Shown here piece after piece: positions 11 to 61,598 of a stretch of 64,000 bases of DNA. The notes under the pieces were generated by a model that saw only the letters and a program-made list of their open reading frames with translations, ran no database searches and had not been told where the DNA came from. Where the stretch lies: positions 12 through 64,011 of the IMG/VR virus record IMGVR_UViG_3300044446_000019; one strand, given 5' to 3'. Within the stretch, counting starts at the first letter, position 1; the number at the start of each line of letters is the position of its first letter. A program made the translations under genes and the position numbers. The DNA comes from a virus (taxonomy: Duplodnaviria; Caudoviricetes).

Positions 11-70
11 ATCGATGAACCCCTTTAGTTTCCTGCCATTCCATCGATGAACCCCTTTAGTTTCCTGCCA
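11..70 (+). repeat. 28-bp direct repeat ATCGATGAACCCCTTTAGTTTCCTGCCA x2 (11-38, 43-70), iteron-like
   Basis: Seen directly; mirrored at 57184-57243. Confidence 0.9.
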
Positions 71-568: not shown

Positions 569-777
569 TCTGCCTTGTTCAACGGGTTTCACCGGTAGAC
601 GGCTATCGCGACACCCTGCGCTGGTTCACGAAGCTCAAACGAGCCGAAGCCTGCGCACAAGGTCTCGCCGCTGGAACTTGGACCCAGCGAGGACCCATCA
701 TGGCAGTGTTTACCCAACCCACCCCTCTGGAGGTATCAAATGACACAACCCAGCACATCCCCGCAGTTTCCTATTGA
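499..777 (+). CDS. Hypothetical protein
   Basis: GAGGAG RBS before GTG; fills the gap between neighbours. Confidence 0.5.
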   Translation: MFKIYGKQAPHPIQYEVIQINWLICLVQRVSPVDGYRDTLRWFTKLKRAEACAQGLAAGTWTQRGPIMAVFTQPTPLEVSNDTTQHIPAVSY

Positions 778-1054
778 TCCCGCCGACATCCTGGAAGCAG
801 CAGCCGACCTCCTGGAGACCAAAGGTTGGATCCAGGGCAGGTCGAAAAACGAAAACGGCTACTGCGCTATGGGAGCCATCAGTGAAGCCTCCGGTCACAA
901 CTATCATCGAATTCTTGCCACCCTCCCAGTTATCGAGATGTGGGCAGCGGCCCTGGTTCATTGGAACGACCAGGAGACCCGCACGGCTGATCAAGTCATC
1001 GACCTAATGAAGCACGCCGCCAAGGACCTACGTAACCGGAAGGAACCAGTGTGA
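740..1054 (+). CDS. DUF6197-like protein, paralog 1
   Basis: ADILEAAADLL..GWIQG...C..GAI...WND..RTA..VI..M.HAAKDLRN pattern shared with the next three genes. Confidence 0.8.
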   Translation: MTQPSTSPQFPIDPADILEAAADLLETKGWIQGRSKNENGYCAMGAISEASGHNYHRILATLPVIEMWAAALVHWNDQETRTADQVIDLMKHAAKDLRNRKEPV

Positions 1055-1437
1055 ATGAGCGTCTTACTGACCCCGCCGACATCCTGGAAGCGGCAGCTGA
1101 CCTGCTGGTCAGTGAAGGTTGGTGCCAGGGTGCCTTTTACCGAGACGAGAAAGGTATGGCTCACGGCAATCTCAGTGAGGCGGTTTCATTCTGTGCCATG
1201 GGCGCGATCCGCATGGTCTCCGGTGTGTACAACCTGGACGGGGAAATAGGTTTCGATGAATCCCGTGCAGCACGTGAAGCACGGGCCGTTCTCCATGCTG
1301 GCTTGAACCGGCCTGTTCCTGGCTTGAACCGGCCTGTTCCTGCCTGGAATGACGAGGCCGGTCGCACTGCCGACGAGGTTGTCGATGCCATGAGGCATGC
1401 AGCCAAGGATTTCCGTAACCGAAGGGAAGCAGCGTGA
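1051..1437 (+). CDS. DUF6197-like protein, paralog 2 (internal 21-bp duplication 1300-1341)
   Basis: Same motifs; GLNRPVP occurs twice. Confidence 0.8.
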   Translation: MNERLTDPADILEAAADLLVSEGWCQGAFYRDEKGMAHGNLSEAVSFCAMGAIRMVSGVYNLDGEIGFDESRAAREARAVLHAGLNRPVPGLNRPVPAWNDEAGRTADEVVDAMRHAAKDFRNRREAA

Positions 1438-1814
1438 ACAACTACCCCACCGACCTAGCTGACATCCTCGAAAAAGCTGTCGAAATCTTGGAAACGGATG
1501 GTTGGGTCCAGGACGCCTATCGCACGGATCCGGACCTCGACACCGGGCGCCGGGCGCATTGTGCCGTCGGAGCGATTCGACAGGCGACCGGTTTCTATCG
1601 GTGGATTGATGTTGCCGAGAATGGTGAGGAGCTGCCTTCTCGTTGGGTAGATGACCAACGGGATCGATCGTTGGTTACAGATTCCGCGATCAACGTTATC
1701 GAGGTCGAAGATCTGATCAGCTACAACGATGACGTAGGCACCAAGGCTGAAGATGTCATCAACCTACTCAAGCATGCGGCCAAGGACCTGCGGAACCAAA
1801 AGGAAGTAGCGTGA
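1434..1814 (+). CDS. DUF6197-like protein, paralog 3
   Basis: Same motifs; GTGA translational coupling. Confidence 0.8.
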   Translation: MNNYPTDLADILEKAVEILETDGWVQDAYRTDPDLDTGRRAHCAVGAIRQATGFYRWIDVAENGEELPSRWVDDQRDRSLVTDSAINVIEVEDLISYNDDVGTKAEDVINLLKHAAKDLRNQKEVA

Positions 1815-2176
1815 AGGATGACTTTGCGGGAGCAGCGGACATCCTGGAGGCAGCCGCCGGCCTCCTAGAGGCCGTGGGTCACTGTAAGCATGCCTCCTGC
1901 GAGGTGGATGCCGACGAAAACGTTACTGCTTACTGTGCCCTGGGTTCAGTGAACGTGGCCGCTCTTGAAATCTGCGGACTCGGATTCTGGAACGTTTGGC
2001 TACCTCTCAGGATCGTCTTTGATTCGGTGAAGGTGGAGCTGTGGGGCAATCCGTTGCTAGACGATATGGAGATAGCCGACTGGAACGATGACCCCGAACG
2101 GGAGCCTTCCGACGTCATTGATCTGTTCAAGCAGGTAGCCAAAGATCTACGCAACGTGCAGAAACAACCTGAGTGA
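1811..2176 (+). CDS. DUF6197-like protein, paralog 4
   Basis: Same motifs (WND, KDLRN). Confidence 0.8.
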   Translation: MKDDFAGAADILEAAAGLLEAVGHCKHASCEVDADENVTAYCALGSVNVAALEICGLGFWNVWLPLRIVFDSVKVELWGNPLLDDMEIADWNDDPEREPSDVIDLFKQVAKDLRNVQKQPE

Positions 2177-2941: not shown

Positions 2942-3230
2942 GATCGCCTGGAAGGCGATCTCAGTGACCCAGACCCGTGCCACGCAGCAGGGTCTGGACT
3001 TTTTTGAGGAACTGAACCGGGTTGGGCTTCTGGCCACAGAACCCCGAATTCGAGAGATCCAAGTACTTGCATTAAGGAATATGTTGGATTATCTGGAAAC
3101 TGGGCTATCGGTCACAGACCTCAACAGAACGTACCAACGTGGAAATTCCAACCCTGCGACGCCGGCCGACACGTACAACGCTGTCCTCAGCTGGATCCGT
3201 ACCTACGTCAATGCCATCAGCAACGACTGA
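2922..3230 (+). CDS. Hypothetical protein (102 aa)
   Basis: GTG start after GAAGG; protein-like composition. Confidence 0.65.
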   Translation: MREPLTEIAWKAISVTQTRATQQGLDFFEELNRVGLLATEPRIREIQVLALRNMLDYLETGLSVTDLNRTYQRGNSNPATPADTYNAVLSWIRTYVNAISND

Positions 3231-3256
3231 TCCTTTCTTCTCAGGTCCTTACTGCT

Positions 3257-3415
3257 CGACTTACCGAACCAGGTTCAGCTCTGCTCCACCCGACATGCCA
3301 CCGCAGCTCTAGTCGTATCTGCGCCATCCGGCTCCGACGAGCCAAATCTCCTCGGCACTTCCCTCCTCCGACGAGCCAAATCTTGTCCCCCCGACCCGAC
3401 GTTCCAAATCGGGCC
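3257..3415 (+). repeat. CGAC-(NNNNC)n array 1 (about 5 units); putative guide-RNA array
   Basis: CGAC at 3257, 3291, 3335, 3369, 3397, separated by 5-nt blocks mostly ending in C. Confidence 0.8.
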
Positions 3416-3448
3416 TTGAGCAACCCCAACCATTTCGAAGGAGGATCA

Positions 3449-4003
3449 GTGACCTCTGTTGAGCCCTACCAGCCACCGCCGAACCGAGACTACGCAGCTG
3501 ATATGCGCAAGTATCTCGACGAGGCGCGCACCGGAGGCGACAGCTACAACGCAGTAACCGCTGCCAGAGAAATTGCTCAGAAGCTACTTCAGGACGATCG
3601 GGAGCTGTATTACGGGTGGCTCGAAGCGCACGCAGAGAGCACTATCCGTACTGCCCTCGCTGCTGCTGATGCAGCCACCCGGGCTCACGCCCGCAAGAGT
3701 CCGGCCTCTGTGTTCGCTGCCGCAGCTGTTGCTGCTGAGGCAGGTGACCCACGGCCACTACGGCAGGGATTCCTGCAAGCCGTCTACACGGTAGACGCTG
3801 ACCACAACAGAAAAGCGTTGAAGGACATGAAGGCCGAGGATCTGAACTTCGTGGCCGCGTTCTATGAGGACCGGGCCCGGAGCCATATGTTCGAGGCTGC
3901 CTTCTTCCGGGCTTTGGCCAAAAAGGTGGAAGATGGCCGGGTCGCTGACAAATTCGACAACATGACACTTTCTGAACTACATAACCAAGTCACCGGTAAA
4001 TAG
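3449..4003 (+). CDS. Helical protein flanked by arrays; candidate partner of the RAMP protein
   Basis: AAGGAGG RBS before GTG 3449 (the ORF track starts at 3383, inside the array). Confidence 0.8.
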   Translation: MTSVEPYQPPPNRDYAADMRKYLDEARTGGDSYNAVTAAREIAQKLLQDDRELYYGWLEAHAESTIRTALAAADAATRAHARKSPASVFAAAAVAAEAGDPRPLRQGFLQAVYTVDADHNRKALKDMKAEDLNFVAAFYEDRARSHMFEAAFFRALAKKVEDGRVADKFDNMTLSELHNQVTGK

Positions 4004-4004
4004 T

Positions 4005-4446
4005 CGACATCTCAGGACGGCACACACCTCTACAACCCCGACCCGACAACACATGTCAACCCGGATCCAACCCGACGAGTCATAACCAACCCACGCGCAC
4101 CCGATCCGACGGGTCTACACATCCCAGGTCCTCTCTGTCCTGTACCGACGAGCCTTTTCACTTCCGTCCATCTCCAACGAGTCCATACGCCCCTAATCCG
4201 ACAAGCCGTGTCAACTCCCCACAAGTCTCGACGGGTCTTCCCGAGACTCCACCATTCCGCTCTCGTCCGACCATCCACCACCCGCCAAAGCCACAACCGA
4301 CAAGTCTCCACCCTCCCTTTCCGAGCCGACATCTCAGAACTCACCGCCCCCCGTCATTTCCGACAAGCCGGGTCTCCTACTTGTCGTTTCCTAACAGCTC
4401 CGACAACACACACCTGCCCCCTGCAATCCCACCCTCTCGACCACCC
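4005..4446 (+). repeat. CGAC-(NNNNC)n array 2 (about 13 units); putative guide-RNA array
   Basis: Tags at 4005, 4044, 4073, 4107, 4146, 4175 (CAAC), 4199, 4229, 4268, 4298, 4327, 4361, 4401, 4438; nearly every intervening pentamer ends in C. Confidence 0.9.
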
Positions 4447-4463
4447 CATGAGGAGAAAACAAA

Positions 4464-5204
4464 ATGTCCGATCGCGTATTCAGTAAATGGGACAACGAGT
4501 CCTACCCGTACCGTTTCAGGGGTCGTCTCGAACTAGGAACCCTGGTTGGTGGTGTACCCAGTGACCCGAAGGTCGCCGAGGGATGGCTGCGTTCCAAGCT
4601 ACAAGACACCGACGACCGGATCCGGGAGATGGTTGCTCAGATCATGGTGGAGCGTTCCACCTCCATGGAGGAGGCCACCGAGATCGTCAACAGTCTCAAG
4701 AACCTGAACGGTTTCAAGCACACGCCCGAGGGTGTCCTCTTCATTGAGGGGCGACAGCTCAAGGCGGCCATCAAGGAGGCCGTATCGATTGCGGTCGCGG
4801 CAAAGAAACTGGAGATGACCGGCTGGGGTGCCACTCGTAAATGGCTCACCAACTTCCTCCCCGAGCATGTGTTCATCCTTGAAGAGACGTTGGAGATTAG
4901 CCAGTGGGCCGCGAACGGCAAAGATAAGGGGGGTGACCTGGTCAAGGTCACCAAGCCGTCGGGGATCTTCCAGCAGTTCGTGCACACTCATCGGGGTTCC
5001 AGTATCCAGTACCAGGAATATGTGACGGGTGCGGTGGTCGAGTTCAATCTGATCTCCGACCACCCGTTCACCACCAAGGACTGGGGCATGATCTGGACGA
5101 CCGGCGAGAAGAATGGTCTGGGTGCTTCGCGTTCCCAGGGTTACGGCACCTATGGCGTGACCCTGTGGGAGAACACGGAGCCGGCAGCAAAGAAGGCTAA
5201 GTGA
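4464..5204 (+). CDS. Stand-alone Cas7/RAMP-superfamily protein
   Basis: N-terminal beta strand (RFRGRLEL), EGVLFIEGRQLKAAIKEA (cf. RAMP pxIPGSSLKGAxR) and C-terminal Gly-rich loop GLGASRSQGYG. Confidence 0.8.
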   Translation: MSDRVFSKWDNESYPYRFRGRLELGTLVGGVPSDPKVAEGWLRSKLQDTDDRIREMVAQIMVERSTSMEEATEIVNSLKNLNGFKHTPEGVLFIEGRQLKAAIKEAVSIAVAAKKLEMTGWGATRKWLTNFLPEHVFILEETLEISQWAANGKDKGGDLVKVTKPSGIFQQFVHTHRGSSIQYQEYVTGAVVEFNLISDHPFTTKDWGMIWTTGEKNGLGASRSQGYGTYGVTLWENTEPAAKKAK

Positions 5205-5467
5205 CGACTCGCCCCGGGTCCAAATATGGGCCCGGGGCCCCTTATCGTTCCGAAAGCATCCGTGACCTGGTCACCTATAGCCGGGGCTACATCTTGGCTC
5301 TGGAAGACGTTTTGCAGGACAACACCATGATTTCCGAGACCCAGCCTGGGTATCGGCCACCATGGCAGCTCATTCAGAAGATTGAGAAGACTCTCAGGGA
5401 TGCGAGGCGCACGTTGGAAATCCTGCTCCACGATCAGGAAGCTGGGGGCTACCCTGATGAACCCTAA
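5201..5467 (+). CDS. Hypothetical protein
   Basis: GTGA coupling with the RAMP gene. Confidence 0.65.
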   Translation: MTTRPGSKYGPGAPYRSESIRDLVTYSRGYILALEDVLQDNTMISETQPGYRPPWQLIQKIEKTLRDARRTLEILLHDQEAGGYPDEP

Positions 5468-7135: not shown

Positions 7136-7193
7136 ACGGAGGTCCAGTGTGTCGGGGAGACACGTCCCCGGGAAGACCACACTGGGCCTCCGT
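7136..7193 (+). other. Long hairpin preceding array 3
   Basis: ACGGAGGTCCAGTGTG ... CACACTGGGCCTCCGT. Confidence 0.7.
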
Positions 7194-7211
7194 CCTTACC
7201 TGGCACAGACT

Positions 7212-7324
7212 CGACTAGACATCTCCGATCCTCCCATTTCCAACGACTCACCTCAGCACGCCGGCTCCACTCACACCGACTACTCGATGCTGCACTTCCC
7301 CAATCCACCCGGCTCCGACTATCC
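7212..7324 (+). repeat. CGAC-(NNNNC)n array 3 (about 3 units)
   Basis: e.g. CGAC tactc gatgc tgcac ttccc caatc caccc ggctc CGAC. Confidence 0.8.
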
Positions 7325-7338
7325 ACAGAGGAGTACCG

Positions 7339-43933: not shown

Positions 43934-43992
43934 GTCTACTACTCTAACGGGATCAAGACCACAAGAGGTAGATAGCACACGGCTCTAACATT

Positions 43993-44020
43993 TTGGACAT
44001 TGCCTGGGGAGGGGTAGGGT
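43993..44020 (+). promoter_or_regulatory. Putative + strand promoter for array 4
   Basis: TTGGAC...GGGGAGGGG-TAGGGT ending 13 nt before the first CGAC. Confidence 0.55.
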
Positions 44021-44033
44021 GATGGAGACAATT

Positions 44034-44426
44034 CGACGCGCTTCATGTTCTTACTGTTCTCCTCCGACTCGCCGGATCGCCCCAATATCATCCGACTTCC
44101 CTCGACAGCTCTTTCCATCCCGACCCTCTCGACGAATCTCCACTGCGCCGGTCGGACCCGACGAATCTCCACTTCTCACTCCCGTGTCGACTACCCGTCT
44201 CGTCTCCGACATGCCTAACCAAGTCGCCCCAACCCATCCGACACGTCTATATCTCTCCGGATTCCGGTCTGGTGCTGGCTCGTTCCGAGCTGACATATCG
44301 CGTCCTCTTACTTCCACCTCCGACATGTCAAACCTCCCCGAATCCGTTCCGACTGCCCCTATCCGCCCGGGTCAGGTCTCCCTCGACAAGCCGGGCCATT
44401 CCGACCCGAGTCTCATACGACTTACC
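44034..44426 (+). repeat. CGAC-(NNNNC)n array 4 (about 12 units), between terL and the DUF1360 gene
   Basis: e.g. CGAC gaatc tccac tgcgc cggtc ggacc CGAC; CGAC atgtc aaacc tcccc gaatc cgttc CGAC. Confidence 0.85.
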
Positions 44427-45858
44427 ACTGCGGTTGGAGCTGGGACAGGTCGTAAAACTCCTGGCCCAGGTTCCACTCCTGCGCGGAGGGTTGAGCGATC
44501 TTCATGACGCGACGCTCTCCGCGCATCAGGTGGAGGCAGCCATGAACAAGGGCATCCATCCGGTCGGGAGATTCCCTTGTGGACTCGGGATCGAACATGG
44601 TCATCTCGGTTTCGAGGTCGTCCCACTCACCGACCATGTGTAGCCGGCCCTGTTCGCAGCGCATGGCTACCGGCTCAGCTCTTGTACGTTTGCCATGTTT
44701 CGCGTGCACAGGATACATAGATGGAGAGCTATGTTCAGGGAAAAGACCGAGAGTTATCGACTCTTTGAAGGCATCCTGCAATACTTCCGCGAGATACCTT
44801 TTGCCGAGGTTCTCCTCGTAGACGAGGGTATCGGCGCCCCACTTAGACATTGCTCGCCAGGCTGCCAAAGCTGCTGTGCGACCACTCTGTTCGACACTGG
44901 CGTCCTCAAGCACATAGAGATCGTTGTTCACGGTCCGCGCAACGACCACGATCCCGAACAGGTCGTCCTCACCGGTCAGGTTTGGGTCCACTCCAACAAT
45001 GGTGCTGACGATGTCAGTCGGGATTTCAGTCACGCGACCCTTGACTATGTCCATCCGTTTGAATAGGCCACCGGCCCCCAGTTCCAGTAGCTTCCCGTAC
45101 AGCTCCTGTTGACCCAGATCTGAGTCCGCGTACCGGATCTTCAACTCCCGCAGCACATGCGCGGACAAGTTGGTCGCGTTGTCGAAAGTAGAACCCCCCA
45201 TAATGTGGATGGTCCCGTCATCACGCTTCACCCACTCCTGAAGCAGCTTGATTGGCTTCGGCGTAGTGGTGGCGAAGCAGCGAGGATGGTCGTCCATCAA
45301 GTCAGTACGTAAAGACGGGAGGATCCCCTCATACCAGCTCTCATACGACTTCGGCCATTTACAGATCTCATCTACCCAGGCGCCGGCCGCGTTATAACCT
45401 CGGCCCACGTCCTCATCGTCCGCCCCTTCGGCGTAGATCCGAGACCCGTCTGGGAACAGAACCATCGGCCGTGGGCTCTGCTTATACCGAAAGTCAATGC
45501 CCCGACGTGTGAGTACGCGCAGCAGACCTGCTGGACCCTCCATACAGATCGTTCGAGTGTCAGCCAGGGTCTCACCGATCAGCAACCACTCAGTTGGTTG
45601 CCCGTTACGGTCGAATGGATGTTGCAGAACCTTTTCCACGAGCCACTCTGCCCCTGCTCGGGATTTCCCCCAGCCGCGCCCCGCGAGTGCCAGTGCTACC
45701 AGCCAATTCCCCGGTGGTGGCACCTGCTCCGGGCGGGCTGTCCACCACCACTCCCCGCGATTGATCTCCAGCAGCATGTTCAGGGGTAGCGACCTGATCC
45801 AGCTGTCCCGCTCATGGGCAGGGAGCTTAGCCACCCGTTGTGCCAGAGATAAACCCAT
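44422..45858 (-). CDS. terL: Terminase large subunit
   Basis: AGRGWGKSR Walker A, WVDE Walker B, VGVDP and SPDRMDA nuclease motifs. Confidence 0.95.
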   Translation of the reverse strand: MGLSLAQRVAKLPAHERDSWIRSLPLNMLLEINRGEWWWTARPEQVPPPGNWLVALALAGRGWGKSRAGAEWLVEKVLQHPFDRNGQPTEWLLIGETLADTRTICMEGPAGLLRVLTRRGIDFRYKQSPRPMVLFPDGSRIYAEGADDEDVGRGYNAAGAWVDEICKWPKSYESWYEGILPSLRTDLMDDHPRCFATTTPKPIKLLQEWVKRDDGTIHIMGGSTFDNATNLSAHVLRELKIRYADSDLGQQELYGKLLELGAGGLFKRMDIVKGRVTEIPTDIVSTIVGVDPNLTGEDDLFGIVVVARTVNNDLYVLEDASVEQSGRTAALAAWRAMSKWGADTLVYEENLGKRYLAEVLQDAFKESITLGLFPEHSSPSMYPVHAKHGKRTRAEPVAMRCEQGRLHMVGEWDDLETEMTMFDPESTRESPDRMDALVHGCLHLMRGERRVMKIAQPSAQEWNLGQEFYDLSQLQPQW

Positions 45859-51149: not shown

Positions 51150-53708
51150 TTGAGGTTATCAGATGTAGCTAAGATGTGGCAGTCCAATGGGGTGTCGATT
51201 GTCCCAATCGTTGCCAAAAATCAGCCTGCTGTTCGCTGGAAGCAATATCAGGCCAGGATTCCCGACCTCGGAGAGATCAACGACTGGTGGGGTAACGGGC
51301 ACCCATGGGGCATTGCCCTGATCTGCGGTGCCGTCTCCGGTAACCTCGAAATGACCGAAATCGAGGGACGTGCCCTCTCTGCTGCCGGTTTGACCAAGGT
51401 GGCAAATAGTGCAGACACTCTCGGTTGCGGGGAGCTGTGGGACCGACTCAGTACCGGGTTCACGCAGGCGTCGCCCTCAGGCGGATTGCACCTTGTGTAC
51501 CGGATCTCTGATCACGAAGTGCCCGGAAACGAGAAGATTGCTCACGCCGAACCGAGCCTGGACGAGAAGTCCGGCCGGATGGTGCAGCTGGTCCTCGCCG
51601 AGACCCGTGGAGAGGGAGGATATTTCGTCGGGGCCCCGTCGCCAGGTTCGTGTCACCCAAGTGGCGAAGGCTGGTTGTTAGCATCGGGTGTCTACGGCGA
51701 AGTGCCCACGATCACCTGGGATGAACGCCAGCAACTACACGAAGCAATAAGACAAGCACTCGACATCCCCCGCCCGTCCGTGTCTCCTCCGTTCGACGAA
51801 TCCACTCGGGACCAGCTGACCCAAGCCCTATCCGACGTGCCAGATCTGCACAACCCCAGCTCGATCTCTCCTCACTCTGCTACCCTCCACGAAGCAGCCC
51901 TCCAGGCGACCGCCTCCCCAGGTGTTTTGGACCGGAGGGCTGCTTCTATTTCCCCTGGTGACCATTGGTCCGCGTCCACGGACTGGGCTGACATTCTGGA
52001 ACCAGAAGGATGGACCTTACTGCGGGGGCAGCACAACGTCAGCCTCGGTGAACGATTGTGGGTACGTCCAGGCAAGAACGCCCGAGAAGGACACAGCGCC
52101 AGCACTGACTATCAGGGCAAACCGGGACTGTATGTCTGGTCCACGTCGGCTGGCCTGGAGTCGGAGACTCCACTGTCCAAACTATTTGTCCTGGCGCACT
52201 ACCAGTTCCACGGTGACATGAAGCTGGCCGCACAGGACTTGAAACGTCGCGGCTTCGGCACGGTGGCTCAGCCTGATCTGACGCTGGGGGAACTGGATCT
52301 CAACAGCACCAACGAAGAGCCGGCGCCGGATCCACATTTCAGTCACGACGACACCGGTAACGCGATGCGGCTCTGGCACACGGTGGGCAGGGCTCGGTTC
52401 CGCTGGGTGTACGAACAAAAAGAGGTGTATGCCTGGACCGGGAAGGAATGGGCACCGGATTACAAGGGTGCCCTGGACCGTGAGTGGATCAAGCTCACCG
52501 AGAGCATGGAGCGGGAGGGACTTGATCAGGAGAACGCTGCCCTGATCAAGTGGGCACGCCGCAGCCGTAGCCGCGACCGGCACAACGCAGCCTTGTCGAT
52601 GATGCGAGTCATGGAGGGCGCAACCATCAGCGCCTCTGAGATGAACACTGCGCCGGATCACCTGAACTTGTACAACGGTACGTACAACATGAAGACCGGG
52701 GTCCTGGAGCCACATAACCCCGAACACCTGATGACCCGCACCATGGTGGCCAGTTACAACCCCGAGGCCACCTGTCCAAAATTTGAGCAGTTCATGGAGC
52801 AGGTGCTGCCCGATCCTGAAGTCCGCGCCTACGTGCAGCGAGCGGTCGGATACAGCTTGCTCGGAAAAGCGGACCACCGAGCGTTCTTCCTGATCCATGG
52901 TCCCAGTGGTACTGGGAAGTCGCAGTTCCTGTCCACTATGGAGTATGTATTTGGTGGGTATGGTGCCACTGCTGCGGAAGGCACCTTCCGGGTGCACGAA
53001 GGTAGTGGACCCAACAACGACTTACATGGTCTACGGGGCAAGCGGTTCGTGTCCACATCGGAGACGGCGGAGAACGCTACCTTCAACGAGAACCTGCTGA
53101 AGCGTTTGACCGGCACGGATCAGGTAGTTTCCCGCGAGATGTACCAGACCAACGTGACCTGGCGCCCCGAGTGTGCACTGTGGCTGGCCACGAACCACCC
53201 ACCACGATTCAACAGTGACGACGACGCGATCTGGAAGCGGGCCAAACTGGTCCCGTTCGTTACTCGCTTTGGCACGGACGTGCCAGAGATTCCCAACTTC
53301 GCCCGGGACTATCTGTACGCCGAGGCCGATGGCATCTTCAACTGGGTCTTGGCAGGGTTGCACGACTTCCTGGCCAACGGGTTGCAGGAGCCAGAGGGTG
53401 TCCTGGAGGCGGCAAACAAGCACCGCCAGCAGAGCGACACGGTGGCCCGGTTCCTGGATGACCAGATCGCTGACGGCAACCTGCAAGAGGTCCCGGAGGC
53501 CACCATCCGGACGTCGGAGCTGTTCGCCATGTACGAGCAGTGGGGTAAGTCCTCCGGTGAGCGTGGGCTTGGGTCCCGCAGGTTCATCAACCGTCTGGAA
53601 TCCACTGGCCGGGCAACATACACCCGGACCAACGCCCACAGTGTCTGGAAGGGGCTCCATCGATCAGGAGTCCTGGGTGCATACCAGACATCTGTGGATG
53701 AAACCTGA
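51150..53708 (+). CDS. Bifunctional primase/polymerase fused to a D5/P4-type SF3 helicase
   Basis: P.VRWK.YQ, SPSGGLHL, ETRGEGGY; GPSGTGKS Walker A, TNH.P, DDAIW.R. Confidence 0.92.
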   Translation: MRLSDVAKMWQSNGVSIVPIVAKNQPAVRWKQYQARIPDLGEINDWWGNGHPWGIALICGAVSGNLEMTEIEGRALSAAGLTKVANSADTLGCGELWDRLSTGFTQASPSGGLHLVYRISDHEVPGNEKIAHAEPSLDEKSGRMVQLVLAETRGEGGYFVGAPSPGSCHPSGEGWLLASGVYGEVPTITWDERQQLHEAIRQALDIPRPSVSPPFDESTRDQLTQALSDVPDLHNPSSISPHSATLHEAALQATASPGVLDRRAASISPGDHWSASTDWADILEPEGWTLLRGQHNVSLGERLWVRPGKNAREGHSASTDYQGKPGLYVWSTSAGLESETPLSKLFVLAHYQFHGDMKLAAQDLKRRGFGTVAQPDLTLGELDLNSTNEEPAPDPHFSHDDTGNAMRLWHTVGRARFRWVYEQKEVYAWTGKEWAPDYKGALDREWIKLTESMEREGLDQENAALIKWARRSRSRDRHNAALSMMRVMEGATISASEMNTAPDHLNLYNGTYNMKTGVLEPHNPEHLMTRTMVASYNPEATCPKFEQFMEQVLPDPEVRAYVQRAVGYSLLGKADHRAFFLIHGPSGTGKSQFLSTMEYVFGGYGATAAEGTFRVHEGSGPNNDLHGLRGKRFVSTSETAENATFNENLLKRLTGTDQVVSREMYQTNVTWRPECALWLATNHPPRFNSDDDAIWKRAKLVPFVTRFGTDVPEIPNFARDYLYAEADGIFNWVLAGLHDFLANGLQEPEGVLEAANKHRQQSDTVARFLDDQIADGNLQEVPEATIRTSELFAMYEQWGKSSGERGLGSRRFINRLESTGRATYTRTNAHSVWKGLHRSGVLGAYQTSVDET
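51761..51871 (+). repeat. CGAC-(NNNNC)n array 5, embedded in the primase linker
   Basis: CGAC at 51761, 51794, 51833; atccc ccgcc cgtcc gtgtc tcctc / gaatc cactc gggac ... aagcc ctatc / gtgcc agatc tgcac aaccc. Confidence 0.65.
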
Positions 53709-57147: not shown

Positions 57148-57278
57148 CCTCCCACCTTACACCCCCCCCCTCCCGTGTACCAGTGGCAGGAAACTAAAGG
57201 GGTTCATCGATGGAATGGCAGGAAACTAAAGGGGTTCATCGATATCTCCGATCCCCTGACCAGCAGAAACAGGAACCG

Positions 57279-60848: not shown

Positions 60849-61598
60849 ATGGTCACAAGAGATGCCCTTGTCGAGGTGTTGAGCGCCGATCAGATGGTCA
60901 CGCTCGACGCGCTCACACAGCGGGTGAAAGACTCCGCGCAGCTCATCGCGCGGGAACGACTCACGGACATAGCCGTGCGTACCGCACGCGCGGCTAGCTG
61001 GTGCGACGACTTCAGGGCCTACGCACTGAAGGTCATTGGCCGGCCGGCTGGCCCGAAGGTCAATTGGCGTATTTCTGCCCGCAACCGTACCGAAAGGGAC
61101 ATGCGGGTCGAATTCCGCGACACGGACGGGCTCGACTGCTGGGGCTATGACGTCAATGGCTGGAAAGACGGGATAGGTCCTGACGGGTTCAACGCTGACG
61201 GTTGGAACGTCGACGGCTATAACCGTGAAGGGTTCGATACCGAGGGCCGCAATATGTTCCGATTCAACTCAAAGGGCCGGGATATCGAAGGTTACGACGC
61301 CAACGGCCGTAACCATGATGGACGCGACCGTGAGGGTTGGGATCAACTTGGCTTCCGCGATGGACGCGACCGTGATGGGTTCGACCACAACGGGCGCGAC
61401 ATGGACGGGTATGACCGCGAGGGCGTAGATCTTCACGGTCTTCGTCGTGACGGTACGGACCAATTCGGCCGACCACGGCTAGGGTTCGACCTCTGGGGGC
61501 GGGATGAGAATGGGTATGACCGCTACGGATACAACCGTGATAACGGTCGATACCTTACGCCCGTGCCGTTGGCCGAGCCTGTGTCGGCCGTGAGCTAG
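60849..61598 (+). CDS. Protein with C-terminal G(F/Y/R)DxxG repeats
   Basis: Many 5-residue repeats (DGFNA DGWNV DGYNR EGFDT ...). Confidence 0.8.
   Translation: MVTRDALVEVLSADQMVTLDALTQRVKDSAQLIARERLTDIAVRTARAASWCDDFRAYALKVIGRPAGPKVNWRISARNRTERDMRVEFRDTDGLDCWGYDVNGWKDGIGPDGFNADGWNVDGYNREGFDTEGRNMFRFNSKGRDIEGYDANGRNHDGRDREGWDQLGFRDGRDRDGFDHNGRDMDGYDREGVDLHGLRRDGTDQFGRPRLGFDLWGRDENGYDRYGYNRDNGRYLTPVPLAEPVSAVS

What the first reader, a model, noticed from the sequence alone, without database searches (positions are those of the whole stretch)
3257..5204. Phage Cas7/RAMP-like protein with non-CRISPR, 5-nt-periodic arrays: candidate RNA-guided system
SEEN: the two 'intergenic' stretches around 3449-4003 are strictly patterned. 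A 4-nt tag CGAC is followed by 4-8 five-nt blocks that each end in C, e.g. 4107 CGAC gggtc tacac atccc aggtc ctctc tgtcc tgtac CGAC gagcc ttttc acttc cgtcc atctc. Parsing 4009-4360 by hand gives 61 pentamers all ending in C, plus one 6-nt block and one extra base. G is rare at block position 4 (3/61), positions 1-3 vary freely, and the first block after CGAC is biased to RNRYC. Units are about 24-44 nt. The array ends about 20 nt before a 246-aa gene with RAMP hallmarks (LFIEGRQLKAAIKEA; GLGASRSQGYG loop). No cas1/2/5/6 and no conventional CRISPR repeat is present. KNOWN: Cas7-family proteins polymerise along guide RNA with a fixed periodicity and flip out one base per subunit. INFERENCE: each unit is a guide RNA coated by one RAMP subunit per 5 nt; the invariant C is protein-bound and the variable bases encode a gapped target, e.g. 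to repress rival phage or host genes. As I recall (unverified), phage RAMP systems with GGY-NN pentamer repeats have been reported recently. This CGAC/NNNHC grammar differs and may be a new type.
Basis: partly seen in the sequence, partly recalled or inferred. Interest (0 to 1): 0.96.

Follow-up and report, generated by a model that had tools for sequence, protein, structure and literature searches.

The report
Actinophage VIPR system, C-anchored guide arrays
This phage carries a small Cas7-like protein, a helper gene and strictly five-base-phased repeat arrays that together match the VIPR RNA-guided DNA-silencing systems first described in 2026 preprints, so the pattern is real but of a kind already known.

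Summary

The same gene and array grammar recur in 76 of 81 related loci, which come from uncultured phages and actinomycete genomes. A helical partner gene recurs in 43 of 81. The array content itself is not conserved.

This matches VIPR systems (Vipr RAMP, vap gene, pentamer vrRNAs; bioRxiv 10.64898/2026.04.26.720920). That preprint also lists NNNGG/NNNNG repeats and "staggered" arrays, and this scan has noted the CGAC clade before on other DNA.

In a relative (L057), one 9-pentamer guide read by the published one-base-skip rule matches a conserved motif of rival vipr genes exactly. No target was found for the window's own short guides.

The transcribed strand is unresolved. Gene context favours the sense, C-anchored RNA (about 0.65); the published G-based consensus favours the antisense. 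No RNA data exist.

Verdict: a real, new member of a known kind, of moderate-to-low interest.

The parts
3231..3448 (+). Array 1. An anchorless phased tract starts right after the stop codon of the upstream gene. CGAC anchors follow at 3257, 3291, 3335, 3369, 3392 and 3397. The array ends at the ribosome-binding site of the partner gene.
   Evidence: 25 of 29 pentamers end in C; lag-5 z = +4.3.
3449..4003 (+). Conserved all-helical partner gene (184 aa from the GTG at 3449), a candidate vap-type accessory.
   Evidence: tblastn homologues lie upstream of vipr on the same strand in 43 of 81 loci. AF2 model: pLDDT 85.7, all helical. No PDB fold match at E <= 0.001. No Pfam, NCBIfam or PADLOC hit; PHROG 4604 (unknown function) at E 9e-4.
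4004..4445 (+). Array 2. It has 14 CGAC anchors (4005 to 4438) plus one degenerate CAAC anchor. Units are CGAC + (NNNYC)5-7.
   Evidence: 65 of 74 pentamers end in C over 4005-4437.. No nucleotide similarity to arrays of 81 related loci.
4464..5204 (+). vipr-like gene: a 246-aa stand-alone RAMP (Cas7-like). It has an RRM core, a helical insertion (residues 35-78), a beta-hairpin region and a glycine-rich loop (218-228).
5211..5238 (+). Strong hairpin 7 nt after the vipr stop codon, terminator-like but without a T-run.
   Evidence: -27.5 kcal/mol, z -3.75. flags its 3' half.
7136..7338 (+). A long hairpin (7136-7193) followed by array 3. The array has 4 CGAC units (7212-7338) and ends at the ribosome-binding site of the next + strand gene.
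   Evidence: 18 of 19 pentamers end in C.: -43.4 kcal/mol, z -4.6.
44065..44420 (+). Array 4, with 13 CGAC anchors, C-rich on the + strand. It lies between the terminase large-subunit gene and a portal-operon gene, which are both on the - strand.
   Evidence: 39 of 57 pentamers end in C. A promoter-like TTGGAC-16-TAGGGT sits at 43993-44021 on the + strand (read by eye, unverified).
51761..51906 (+). Three CGAC-pentamer units lying in frame inside the primase-helicase ORF, in the linker between its two domains.
   Evidence: the PHROG primase match spans residues 4-836 of the ORF.

Best explanation
The locus is a VIPR-type system (Viral Interference Programmable Repeat) of an approximately 64-kb siphovirus-like phage of actinomycetes.

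The 246-aa RAMP is the Vipr protein. The 184-aa helical gene is a clade-specific accessory. The CGAC-punctuated pentamer arrays are arrays of short guide RNAs (vrRNAs).

By analogy with the solved SUSP1 system, one Vipr protomer binds each pentamer. It sequesters three bases (here N-Y-C on the sense strand) and exposes two (positions 1-2 of each block). The exposed dinucleotides pair with double-stranded DNA, skipping every third target base. The filament then blocks transcription of a rival mobile element.

The 4-nt CGAC is a one-base slip of the 5-nt register. It ends one filament and starts the next, so each unit is a guide of 5-8 repeats, or 10-16 specified bases.

What is shown:
- the anatomy of the locus
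- the RAMP fold
- family-wide linkage of gene and arrays
- hypervariable array content
- the skip rule working for one guide of a relative

What is inferred:
- transcription of the arrays
- binding by Vipr
- silencing of a target
- the strand: I put about 0.65 on the sense, C-anchored RNA, co-transcribed with vap and vipr
For: Fold:
- Every Foldseek PDB row listed is a Cas7-family RAMP.

Linkage:
- Periodic arrays were detected in 76 of 81 related loci. The set contains near-duplicate loci.
- The family-wide grammar from 1244 distinct units is CGAC + (NNNYC)n. Position 5 is C in about 90%. Position 4 is C or T in about 75-85%. Positions 1-2 are near-random.
- The partner gene is present in 43 of 81 loci.
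- vipr aligns at DNA level in 60 loci, while arrays 1-4 give 0 hits.

Published match:
- Vipr plus vap plus pentamer vrRNAs in long intergenic regions.
- Alternative NNNGG, YNNNG and NNNNG repeats.
- Staggered arrays.

Skip rule in this clade:
- A 9-pentamer unit of L057, read as positions 1-2 plus one skipped base, matches L058 at 18 of 18.
- The same pattern gives 6 exact IMG/VR matches. All 6 encode L-A-[ED]-R-V-F-V-[DE]-E with the skipped base at codon position 3.
- 4 of the 6 lie in vipr homologues, while L057's own vipr matches only 14 of 18.

Sense strand:
- In 48 loci a C-type array ends within 130 nt of the vipr start, typically 13-60 nt away.
- In 19 loci (near-duplicates among them) a C-type array starts within 130 nt after the stop, in two of them at -3 and -1 nt.
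- Inverted (G-type) arrays sit 91 nt or more from vipr, or behind a strong terminator (L041, L042).
- There were 0 minus-strand promoter-like sites in the vipr 5' 120 nt of those 48 loci.
Against: - No RNA evidence of any kind exists for this locus or clade.
- The profile of this family does not detect the SUSP1 Vipr by sequence (hhalign probability 0.2%; 0 matches in the SUSP1 genome).
- The repeat does not fit the canonical GGY/NN on either strand.
- No target was found for the window's 21 units. Across 522 units and 13 skip rules there was no enrichment over shuffled guides in 0.96 Mb.
- The window's only 8-pentamer guide gave 25 IMG/VR matches. That is about the chance number by my arithmetic. 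They fall into a few recurring sequences, and all 25 show a stop codon in at least one of the two reading frames printed.
- Two other long L057 guides gave 0 exact matches.

Against the sense strand specifically:
- All published, sequenced vrRNAs are G-anchored, and in SUSP1 they lie on the vipr strand.
- The antisense reading G-R-N/NN maps neatly onto G1-G2-Y3/N4N5.
- Array 4 is antisense to its flanking late genes.
- A long untranslated C-rich, G-poor RNA looks like a Rho loading site. This last point rests on my own knowledge, not on a call.
Confidence: 0.8

Rival explanations
1. It is the same VIPR system, but the guides are transcribed from the strand opposite to vipr. That gives G-anchored vrRNAs of the form (G-R-N-N-N)n ending in GTCG. 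These would be the published NNNGG/NNNNG 'staggered' type.
For: - The reverse complement of NNNYC is GRNNN. This keeps the order of the published G1-G2-Y3-N4-N5: the best-conserved base falls at G1 and a purine at G2.
- The decoded guide uses exactly the two positions that would be N4 and N5.
- The preprint lists NNNGG and NNNNG repeats and arrays overlapping by 1 nt. A 4-nt GTCG followed by G reproduces that overlap.
- Array 4 would then be co-directional with the late operon.
Against: - It needs antisense promoters inside or abutting vipr in 48 loci, and none was seen.
- Arrays fill the stop-to-RBS gaps between co-directional genes (window 4003 to 4464; L067, L066).
- In L041 and L042 a strong + strand terminator separates vipr from a G-type array, with no room for a promoter.
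- The two G-contacting loop residues of SUSP1 Vipr (D177, W178) have no identical counterpart in the loop GLGASRSQGYG in either gapless alignment I tried by eye. This is inference only.
Confidence: 0.27
2. The arrays are cis-acting elements that merely travel with the gene, not guides. They could be Rho-loading or antitermination tracts, iterons, or protein-binding DNA.
For: - C-rich, G-poor composition.
- Arrays are scattered at five places in the genome, one of them inside an ORF.
- No targets were found for the window's units.
Against: - A strict 5-nt register with two hypervariable positions per block, and no conservation of content between relatives, is not expected of binding sites or rut tracts.
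- One guide of a relative spells a conserved coding motif of rival genes by the published rule.
- The arrays are linked to a RAMP-fold protein in 76 of 81 loci.
Confidence: 0.04
3. It is a degenerate or miniature CRISPR-Cas module, or an RNA anti-CRISPR decoy that mimics type III crRNAs.
For: The closest solved folds are Csm3 and type VII Cas7.
Against: - There is no repeat-spacer array.
- No other cas gene was found in the ORFs scanned.
- The period is 5 nt, not the 6 nt of Cas7 filaments.
- The units share only CGAC.
Confidence: 0.02

Closest known systems
Type II VIPR of Escherichia phage SUSP1 (Vipr 196 aa, vap1, four vrRNAs). bioRxiv 10.64898/2026.04.26.720920 and .720927.
   Same: - A stand-alone small RAMP with G-loop, thumb and helical bundle.
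- A two-gene module flanked by non-coding arrays.
- A 5-nt repeat with two variable bases.
- The one-base-skip rule, with the skipped base at the codon wobble position (shown here for a relative's guide).
- A phage-borne system whose targets include other VIPR systems.
   Different: - No detectable sequence similarity.
- The repeat is NN-NYC (sense) or GRN-NN (antisense), not GGY-NN.
- Guides have 5-8 repeats rather than 9-16.
- There is no leader and no 40-nt pseudoknot tail; units abut and are separated only by CGAC.
- In SUSP1 the G-anchored RNA is on the vipr strand, whereas here the vipr strand is C-anchored in most loci.
- The partner gene is unrelated to anything I could name.
VIPR variants named in the same preprint: NNNGG, YNNNG and NNNNG repeats and 'staggered' arrays (Methods text and fig. 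S17/S18 legends only; figures and supplements not seen).
   Same: - Read on the antisense strand, the high-GC relatives are GGNNN and the window is GRNNN.
[quoted passage not shown]
   Different: I could not see which clade, type or strand those figures show, so identity with this clade is an inference.
Non-canonical VIPR-like arrays found by a genomic language model (GAC/NN, CAC/NN, WGT/NN, TGH/NN). bioRxiv 10.64898/2026.10.21.760802.
   Same: - C-ended fixed trinucleotides followed by NN, next to a Vipr-like fold.
- The low-GC relatives L060-L064 read NN-NAC.
   Different: [quoted passage not shown] The figure was not seen.
Class 1 CRISPR Cas7 backbone (Csm3 of type III-A; type VII Cas7).
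   Same: Best structural matches; a filament-forming RAMP that grips guide RNA periodically.
   Different: - 6-nt rather than 5-nt period.
- Needs repeat-spacer arrays, Cas6 or Cas5 and other subunits.
- Pairs contiguously, apart from one flipped base.

Membership tests
VIPR (Vipr + vrRNA) | Non-CRISPR context: no CRISPR array and no other cas genes; a minimal locus of vipr plus one accessory gene. | tested here: met
   No interspaced repeats in 64 kb. 22 window ORFs were scanned with one or more libraries and gave no cas family. The partner gene is conserved in 43 of 81 loci. Not every ORF of the window was scanned.
VIPR (Vipr + vrRNA) | Flanking non-coding tandem pentamer repeats with constrained and hypervariable positions. 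| tested here: met
   Array content is not conserved between relatives.
VIPR (Vipr + vrRNA) | Canonical repeat YNNGG (GGY/NN). | tested here: not met
   The sense strand reads NN-N-Y-C and the antisense G-R-N-NN. The preprint itself admits NNNGG, YNNNG and NNNNG for some types, which the antisense reading fits. This fails only the canonical form.
VIPR (Vipr + vrRNA) | One-base-skip recognition of DNA by the NN dinucleotides. | tested here: inconclusive
   Met for one guide of relative L057: 18 of 18 in L058, and 6 of 6 IMG/VR matches in one peptide motif and codon phase. It could not be shown for the window's own 10-16-nt guides.
VIPR (Vipr + vrRNA) | vrRNAs are expressed and co-purify with Vipr. 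| not testable with these tools
   No RNA run was listed for the stretch.
VIPR (Vipr + vrRNA) | Sequence membership in the PSI-BLAST family seeded with X1U2U4 (2,664 proteins). | tested here: inconclusive
The profile against SUSP1 Vipr gave no significant match. The preprint itself says RAMPs share little sequence similarity. NCBI-sourced members of this family exist and could be among the 2,664. The supplementary tables are closed.
Class 1 CRISPR-Cas (type III, IV or VII) | A repeat-spacer CRISPR array, further cas genes and a 6-nt Cas7 register. | tested here: not met
   the period is 5 nt, the shared element is only 4 nt, and no cas neighbours were found.

The most novel reading that the evidence does not exclude
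In this large actinophage clade the Vipr protein has rewritten its grip on the guide, from G-G-Y to N-Y-C. The guides are read from the sense strand as part of the vap-vipr mRNA. They are delimited not by tails, promoters or ribozymes but by a one- or two-base slip of the pentamer register at CGAC. This yields unusually short guides of 10-16 nt. Guide units can also seed elsewhere in the genome, including antisense within the late operon and in frame inside the primase gene.
Probability: 0.5. Interest if true: 0.55.

Novelty: new member of a known kind. Interest (0 to 1): 0.35.

Why it matters
VIPR is a months-old class known mainly from two proteobacterial systems. This locus belongs to a large clade: 1320 relatives at E <= 0.001 in one search, and 443 representatives at 50% identity in another. 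The clade lives in phages and prophages of actinomycetes.

If the guides are C-anchored and defined by register slips, two things follow. The protein-RNA grip of this guide class is evolvable, and very compact multi-guide arrays are possible. Both matter for engineering.

The vipr-against-vipr guide in a relative supports the published idea of VIPR as a weapon between phages. For this window itself nothing beyond membership is shown.

Tried and rejected
- Coding explanation of the arrays: rejected. A 5-nt period is incompatible with codons. The ORFs that cross arrays (for example 4208-4486 and 44019-44507) have no family hits.
- Sequence libraries for the RAMP gene: Pfam, PHROGs and NCBIfam gave nothing significant. 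PADLOC gave Cas6 at E 0.006.
- PDB sequence search with the family profile: only two chance-level rows.
- Megablast of 3000-5400 against GenBank phages: no match. tblastn: one hit, Microcystis phage Mae-JY09, 34% identity.
- Hammerhead or other Rfam families, sought to orient the arrays: only tRNAs were found in the window and in 20 of the 81 loci. The other loci were not scanned.
- RNA evidence: no RNA holder was listed for 3231-5204.
- Target search:
  - 522 distinct units (5 or more clean pentamers; units shorter or out of phase were dropped) were tested against 13 position-and-skip rules on 0.96 Mb (window plus 81 loci, both strands, array regions masked).
  - There was no excess over order-shuffled guides for any rule.
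  - The single strong hit is reported above.
  - Perfect hits of 5-pentamer window units, two of them in L040's vipr, are at chance level. The one I phased skips codon position 2, not the wobble.
- IMG/VR scan with the window's 8-pentamer guide: 25 matches. They fall into a few recurring sequences (two account for most), many in low-GC contigs. All 25 show a stop codon in at least one of the two reading frames printed. I judged them chance.
- Two further L057 guides: 0 matches.
- Fold of the partner gene: no PDB match with E <= 0.001, so its function was left open.
- The GGGAGGGGTAGGGT motif upstream of array 4 occurs 6 times on both strands (0.8 expected). It often sits just before GTG or ATG codons, so I do not count it as a promoter.
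- VIPR type (I-VII) could not be assigned. The main text gives no taxa or type details and the supplements are closed.
Full report
**1. Observation**

The two stretches flanking ORF 3449-4003 are non-coding and strongly strand-asymmetric. C is 39% in 3231-3448 and 43% in 4004-4463, and G is 19% and 15%, against 30% each for the whole window.

C autocorrelation peaks at lags 5, 10 and 15. The z-scores against 500 dinucleotide shuffles are +3.0, +3.4 and +3.3 for 4004-4463, and +4.3, +3.9 and +3.0 for 3231-3448.

A mechanical parse from each CGAC gives 61 pentamers in 4005-4360. Of these, 57 end in C, and G is at position 4 in 3. The fraction ending in C is 0.93, against 0.44 +/- 0.09 in shuffles. 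The four exceptions follow a degenerate CAAC anchor. Distances between anchors are mostly 4 mod 5.

**2. The protein**

ORF 4464-5204 has no significant Pfam, PHROG or NCBIfam family. It has 1320 unnamed relatives at E <= 0.001 in the clustered protein collection, and 443 representatives at E <= 0.001 in the 50%-identity library.

The RAMP reading is supported.

**3. Relatives**

Two scans gave 68 IMG/VR loci and 13 loci in actinomycete and Chloroflexota genomes or MAGs. The named organisms include Nocardiopsis, Streptomyces, Actinomadura and Streptacidiphilus.

A detector for runs of five or more same-base hits at 5-nt spacing finds arrays in 76 of the 81 loci. It finds none in L019, L022, L054, L065 and L068. 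Some loci are near-duplicates: L027/28, L030/31, L051/52, L060-64 and L033/81. Short detections in very GC-rich loci may be false.

From 1244 distinct CGAC-to-CGAC units the grammar is CGAC + (N N N Y C)n. Position 5 is C in about 90%. Position 4 is C or T. Position 3 leans to C or G. Positions 1-2 are near-random. Unit lengths are 3 or 4 mod 5 in 765 of 1244 units. Arrays reach about 1.9 kb, as in L004, L020 and L046.

A homologue of ORF 3449-4003 lies upstream of vipr on the same strand in 43 of 81 loci. Its model is all-helical and matches no solved fold.

At DNA level vipr aligns in 60 loci, but arrays 1-4 of the window align nowhere. The grammar is conserved and the content is not.

**4. 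What is known**

[quoted passage not shown] I read the abstract, Results, Discussion, two parts of the Methods and the supplementary-figure legends. It describes:
- VIPR systems: a stand-alone RAMP (Vipr), an accessory vap gene and vrRNAs of 9-16 YNNGG repeats.
- A one-base-skip pairing rule.
- Targets in rival phages, including other VIPR systems.
- Seven types.
- Alternative NNNGG, YNNNG and NNNNG repeats.
- 'Staggered' arrays in which vrRNAs overlap by 1 nt.

The companion structural preprint (.720927; abstract and two Results sections) shows one protomer per repeat. G1, G2 and Y3 are sequestered, and N4 and N5 pair with the target.

A third preprint (10.64898/2026.10.21.760802; passages and one Methods section) reports 21 clusters with non-canonical cores such as GAC/NN and CAC/NN next to Vipr-like folds.

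A fourth (10.64898/2026.10.15.759431; listing and three passages) added nothing for this question.

Supplementary tables and figures were not available. I therefore cannot say which type this clade is, or whether it is depicted.

I located the SUSP1 system in KT454805 at 27.5-29.5 kb. Its YNNGG tracts lie on the same strand as the 196-aa vipr. The residue numbers quoted in the structural preprint fit that protein. The profile of the present family does not detect it, as expected for RAMPs.

**5. Does the rule work in this clade?**

A blind test of 13 combinations of pairing positions and skip lengths, on 0.96 Mb of local sequence, showed no overall enrichment. The local database is small and most guides are short.

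There was one outlier. A 9-pentamer unit of L057, read as positions 1-2 plus one skipped base, matches L058 at 18 of 18. By my arithmetic with uniform base composition, the chance expectation is about 1e-5 per guide, and below 1e-2 after allowing for about 40 long guides and 8 two-position rules.

The site lies in L058's vipr, on the antisense strand. All skipped bases fall on codon position 3 of L-A-E-R-V-F-V-E-E.

Scanning IMG/VR with the same pattern gave 6 exact matches. All six encode L-A-[ED]-R-V-F-V-[DE]-E in that phase. Four are inside tblastn-detectable vipr homologues. L057's own vipr matches only 14 of 18. Position 3 of the guide pentamers agrees with the skipped base in 4 of 9 cases, so it does not pair.

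The published rule thus extends to this clade, with a 2 + 3 split of each pentamer.

Results against: two other long L057 guides gave no exact match, and nothing convincing was found for the window's own units.

**6. Which strand is the guide?**

For the sense, C-anchored RNA:
- C-type arrays abut vipr. 48 loci have an array ending within 130 nt upstream, mostly 13-60 nt away.
- 19 loci (near-duplicates among them) have a C-type array starting within 130 nt downstream, in two of them at -3 and -1 nt.
- C-type arrays fill the space between the co-directional partner gene and vipr. In the window the stop is at 4003, the first anchor at 4005, the last anchor at 4438 and the ATG at 4464.
- Inverted arrays (L041, L042, L044, L047, L048 and others) are 91 nt or more away, or separated from vipr by a strong terminator with no room for a promoter.
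- No minus-strand promoter-like site occurs in the first 120 nt of vipr in those 48 loci.
- A strong hairpin closes the unit after vipr.

For the antisense, G-anchored RNA:
- Every sequenced vrRNA so far is G-anchored.
- GRN/NN maps in order onto G1 G2 Y3 / N4 N5.
- The published NNNGG and NNNNG repeats and the 1-nt overlap fit the reverse complement.
- Array 4 of the window (44065-44420) would then be co-directional with the terminase-portal operon.
- A long untranslated C-rich RNA should attract Rho (my own knowledge).

I put 0.65 on sense. Only RNA data can settle it.

**7. Other arrays in the window**

The detector finds exactly five regions in 64 kb:
- the two arrays of the finding
- a four-unit array at 7212-7338, behind a -43 kcal/mol hairpin
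- a 13-anchor array at 44065-44420
- three units in frame in the primase-helicase linker at 51761-51906

**8. Verdict**

This scan has already noted the CGAC, C-anchored clade on other DNA. I treated those unchecked AI notes as leads only.

This is a new member of a known, very recent kind. Interest is moderate to low. The open point of real interest is the strand and the base specificity of the grip.

Noticed in passing
window 7136-7338: A third, four-unit CGAC-pentamer array 2 kb downstream of vipr. It is preceded by a long hairpin (-43.4 kcal/mol, z -4.6) and ends at the ribosome-binding site of the next gene.
   Followed up: partly
window 43979-44421: A 13-anchor array, C-rich on the + strand, sits between the terminase and portal-operon genes, which are on the - strand. 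There is an 85-nt spacer on its C-orientation 5' side and none on the other side.
   Followed up: partly
window 51761-51906: Three CGAC-pentamer units lie in frame inside the primase-helicase ORF, in the linker between the primase and helicase domains. They could be dual-coding, or array units inserted into a tolerant linker.
   Followed up: partly
window 11-70 and 57184-57243: A 28-nt sequence occurs twice in tandem (32-nt spacing) at the left end. Its exact reverse complement occurs twice at 57.2 kb, which points to a long inverted repeat in the genome.
   Followed up: no
window 80, 2667, 6098, 44007, 56457, 57161: A motif resembling GGGAGGGGTAGGGT occurs 6 times on both strands (0.8 expected, none of 100 shuffles reach 6). 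It often sits just upstream of GTG or ATG. It could be a strong ribosome-binding site or a regulatory site.
   Followed up: partly
window 740-2176: Four consecutive ~105-128-aa genes look like paralogues by eye. The one I scanned (1051-1437) is DUF6197. They sit just upstream of the VIPR module, behind a Cro/C1-type HTH gene (305-568).
   Followed up: no
window 61185-61528: Five degenerate copies of a 47-nt coding repeat (Gly/Asp-rich) inside ORF 60849-61598.
   Followed up: no
L057 3811-3855, aimed at L058 3357-3383: A guide of one phage spells codon positions 1-2 of the conserved LAERVFVEE motif of other phages' vipr genes. Its own vipr differs at 4 of 18 guide positions. This looks like VIPR-against-VIPR conflict with self-avoidance.
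   Followed up: yes
L058 4113-4225: Directly after the array there is a near-consensus promoter (TTGACC-17-TACTAT) followed by a hairpin with a T-run. This may be a separate small RNA gene.
   Followed up: no
L041 1415-1450 and 3905-3925: A CAGTATAG-containing promoter-like motif occurs upstream of the partner-vipr pair and again after the downstream array.
   Followed up: no
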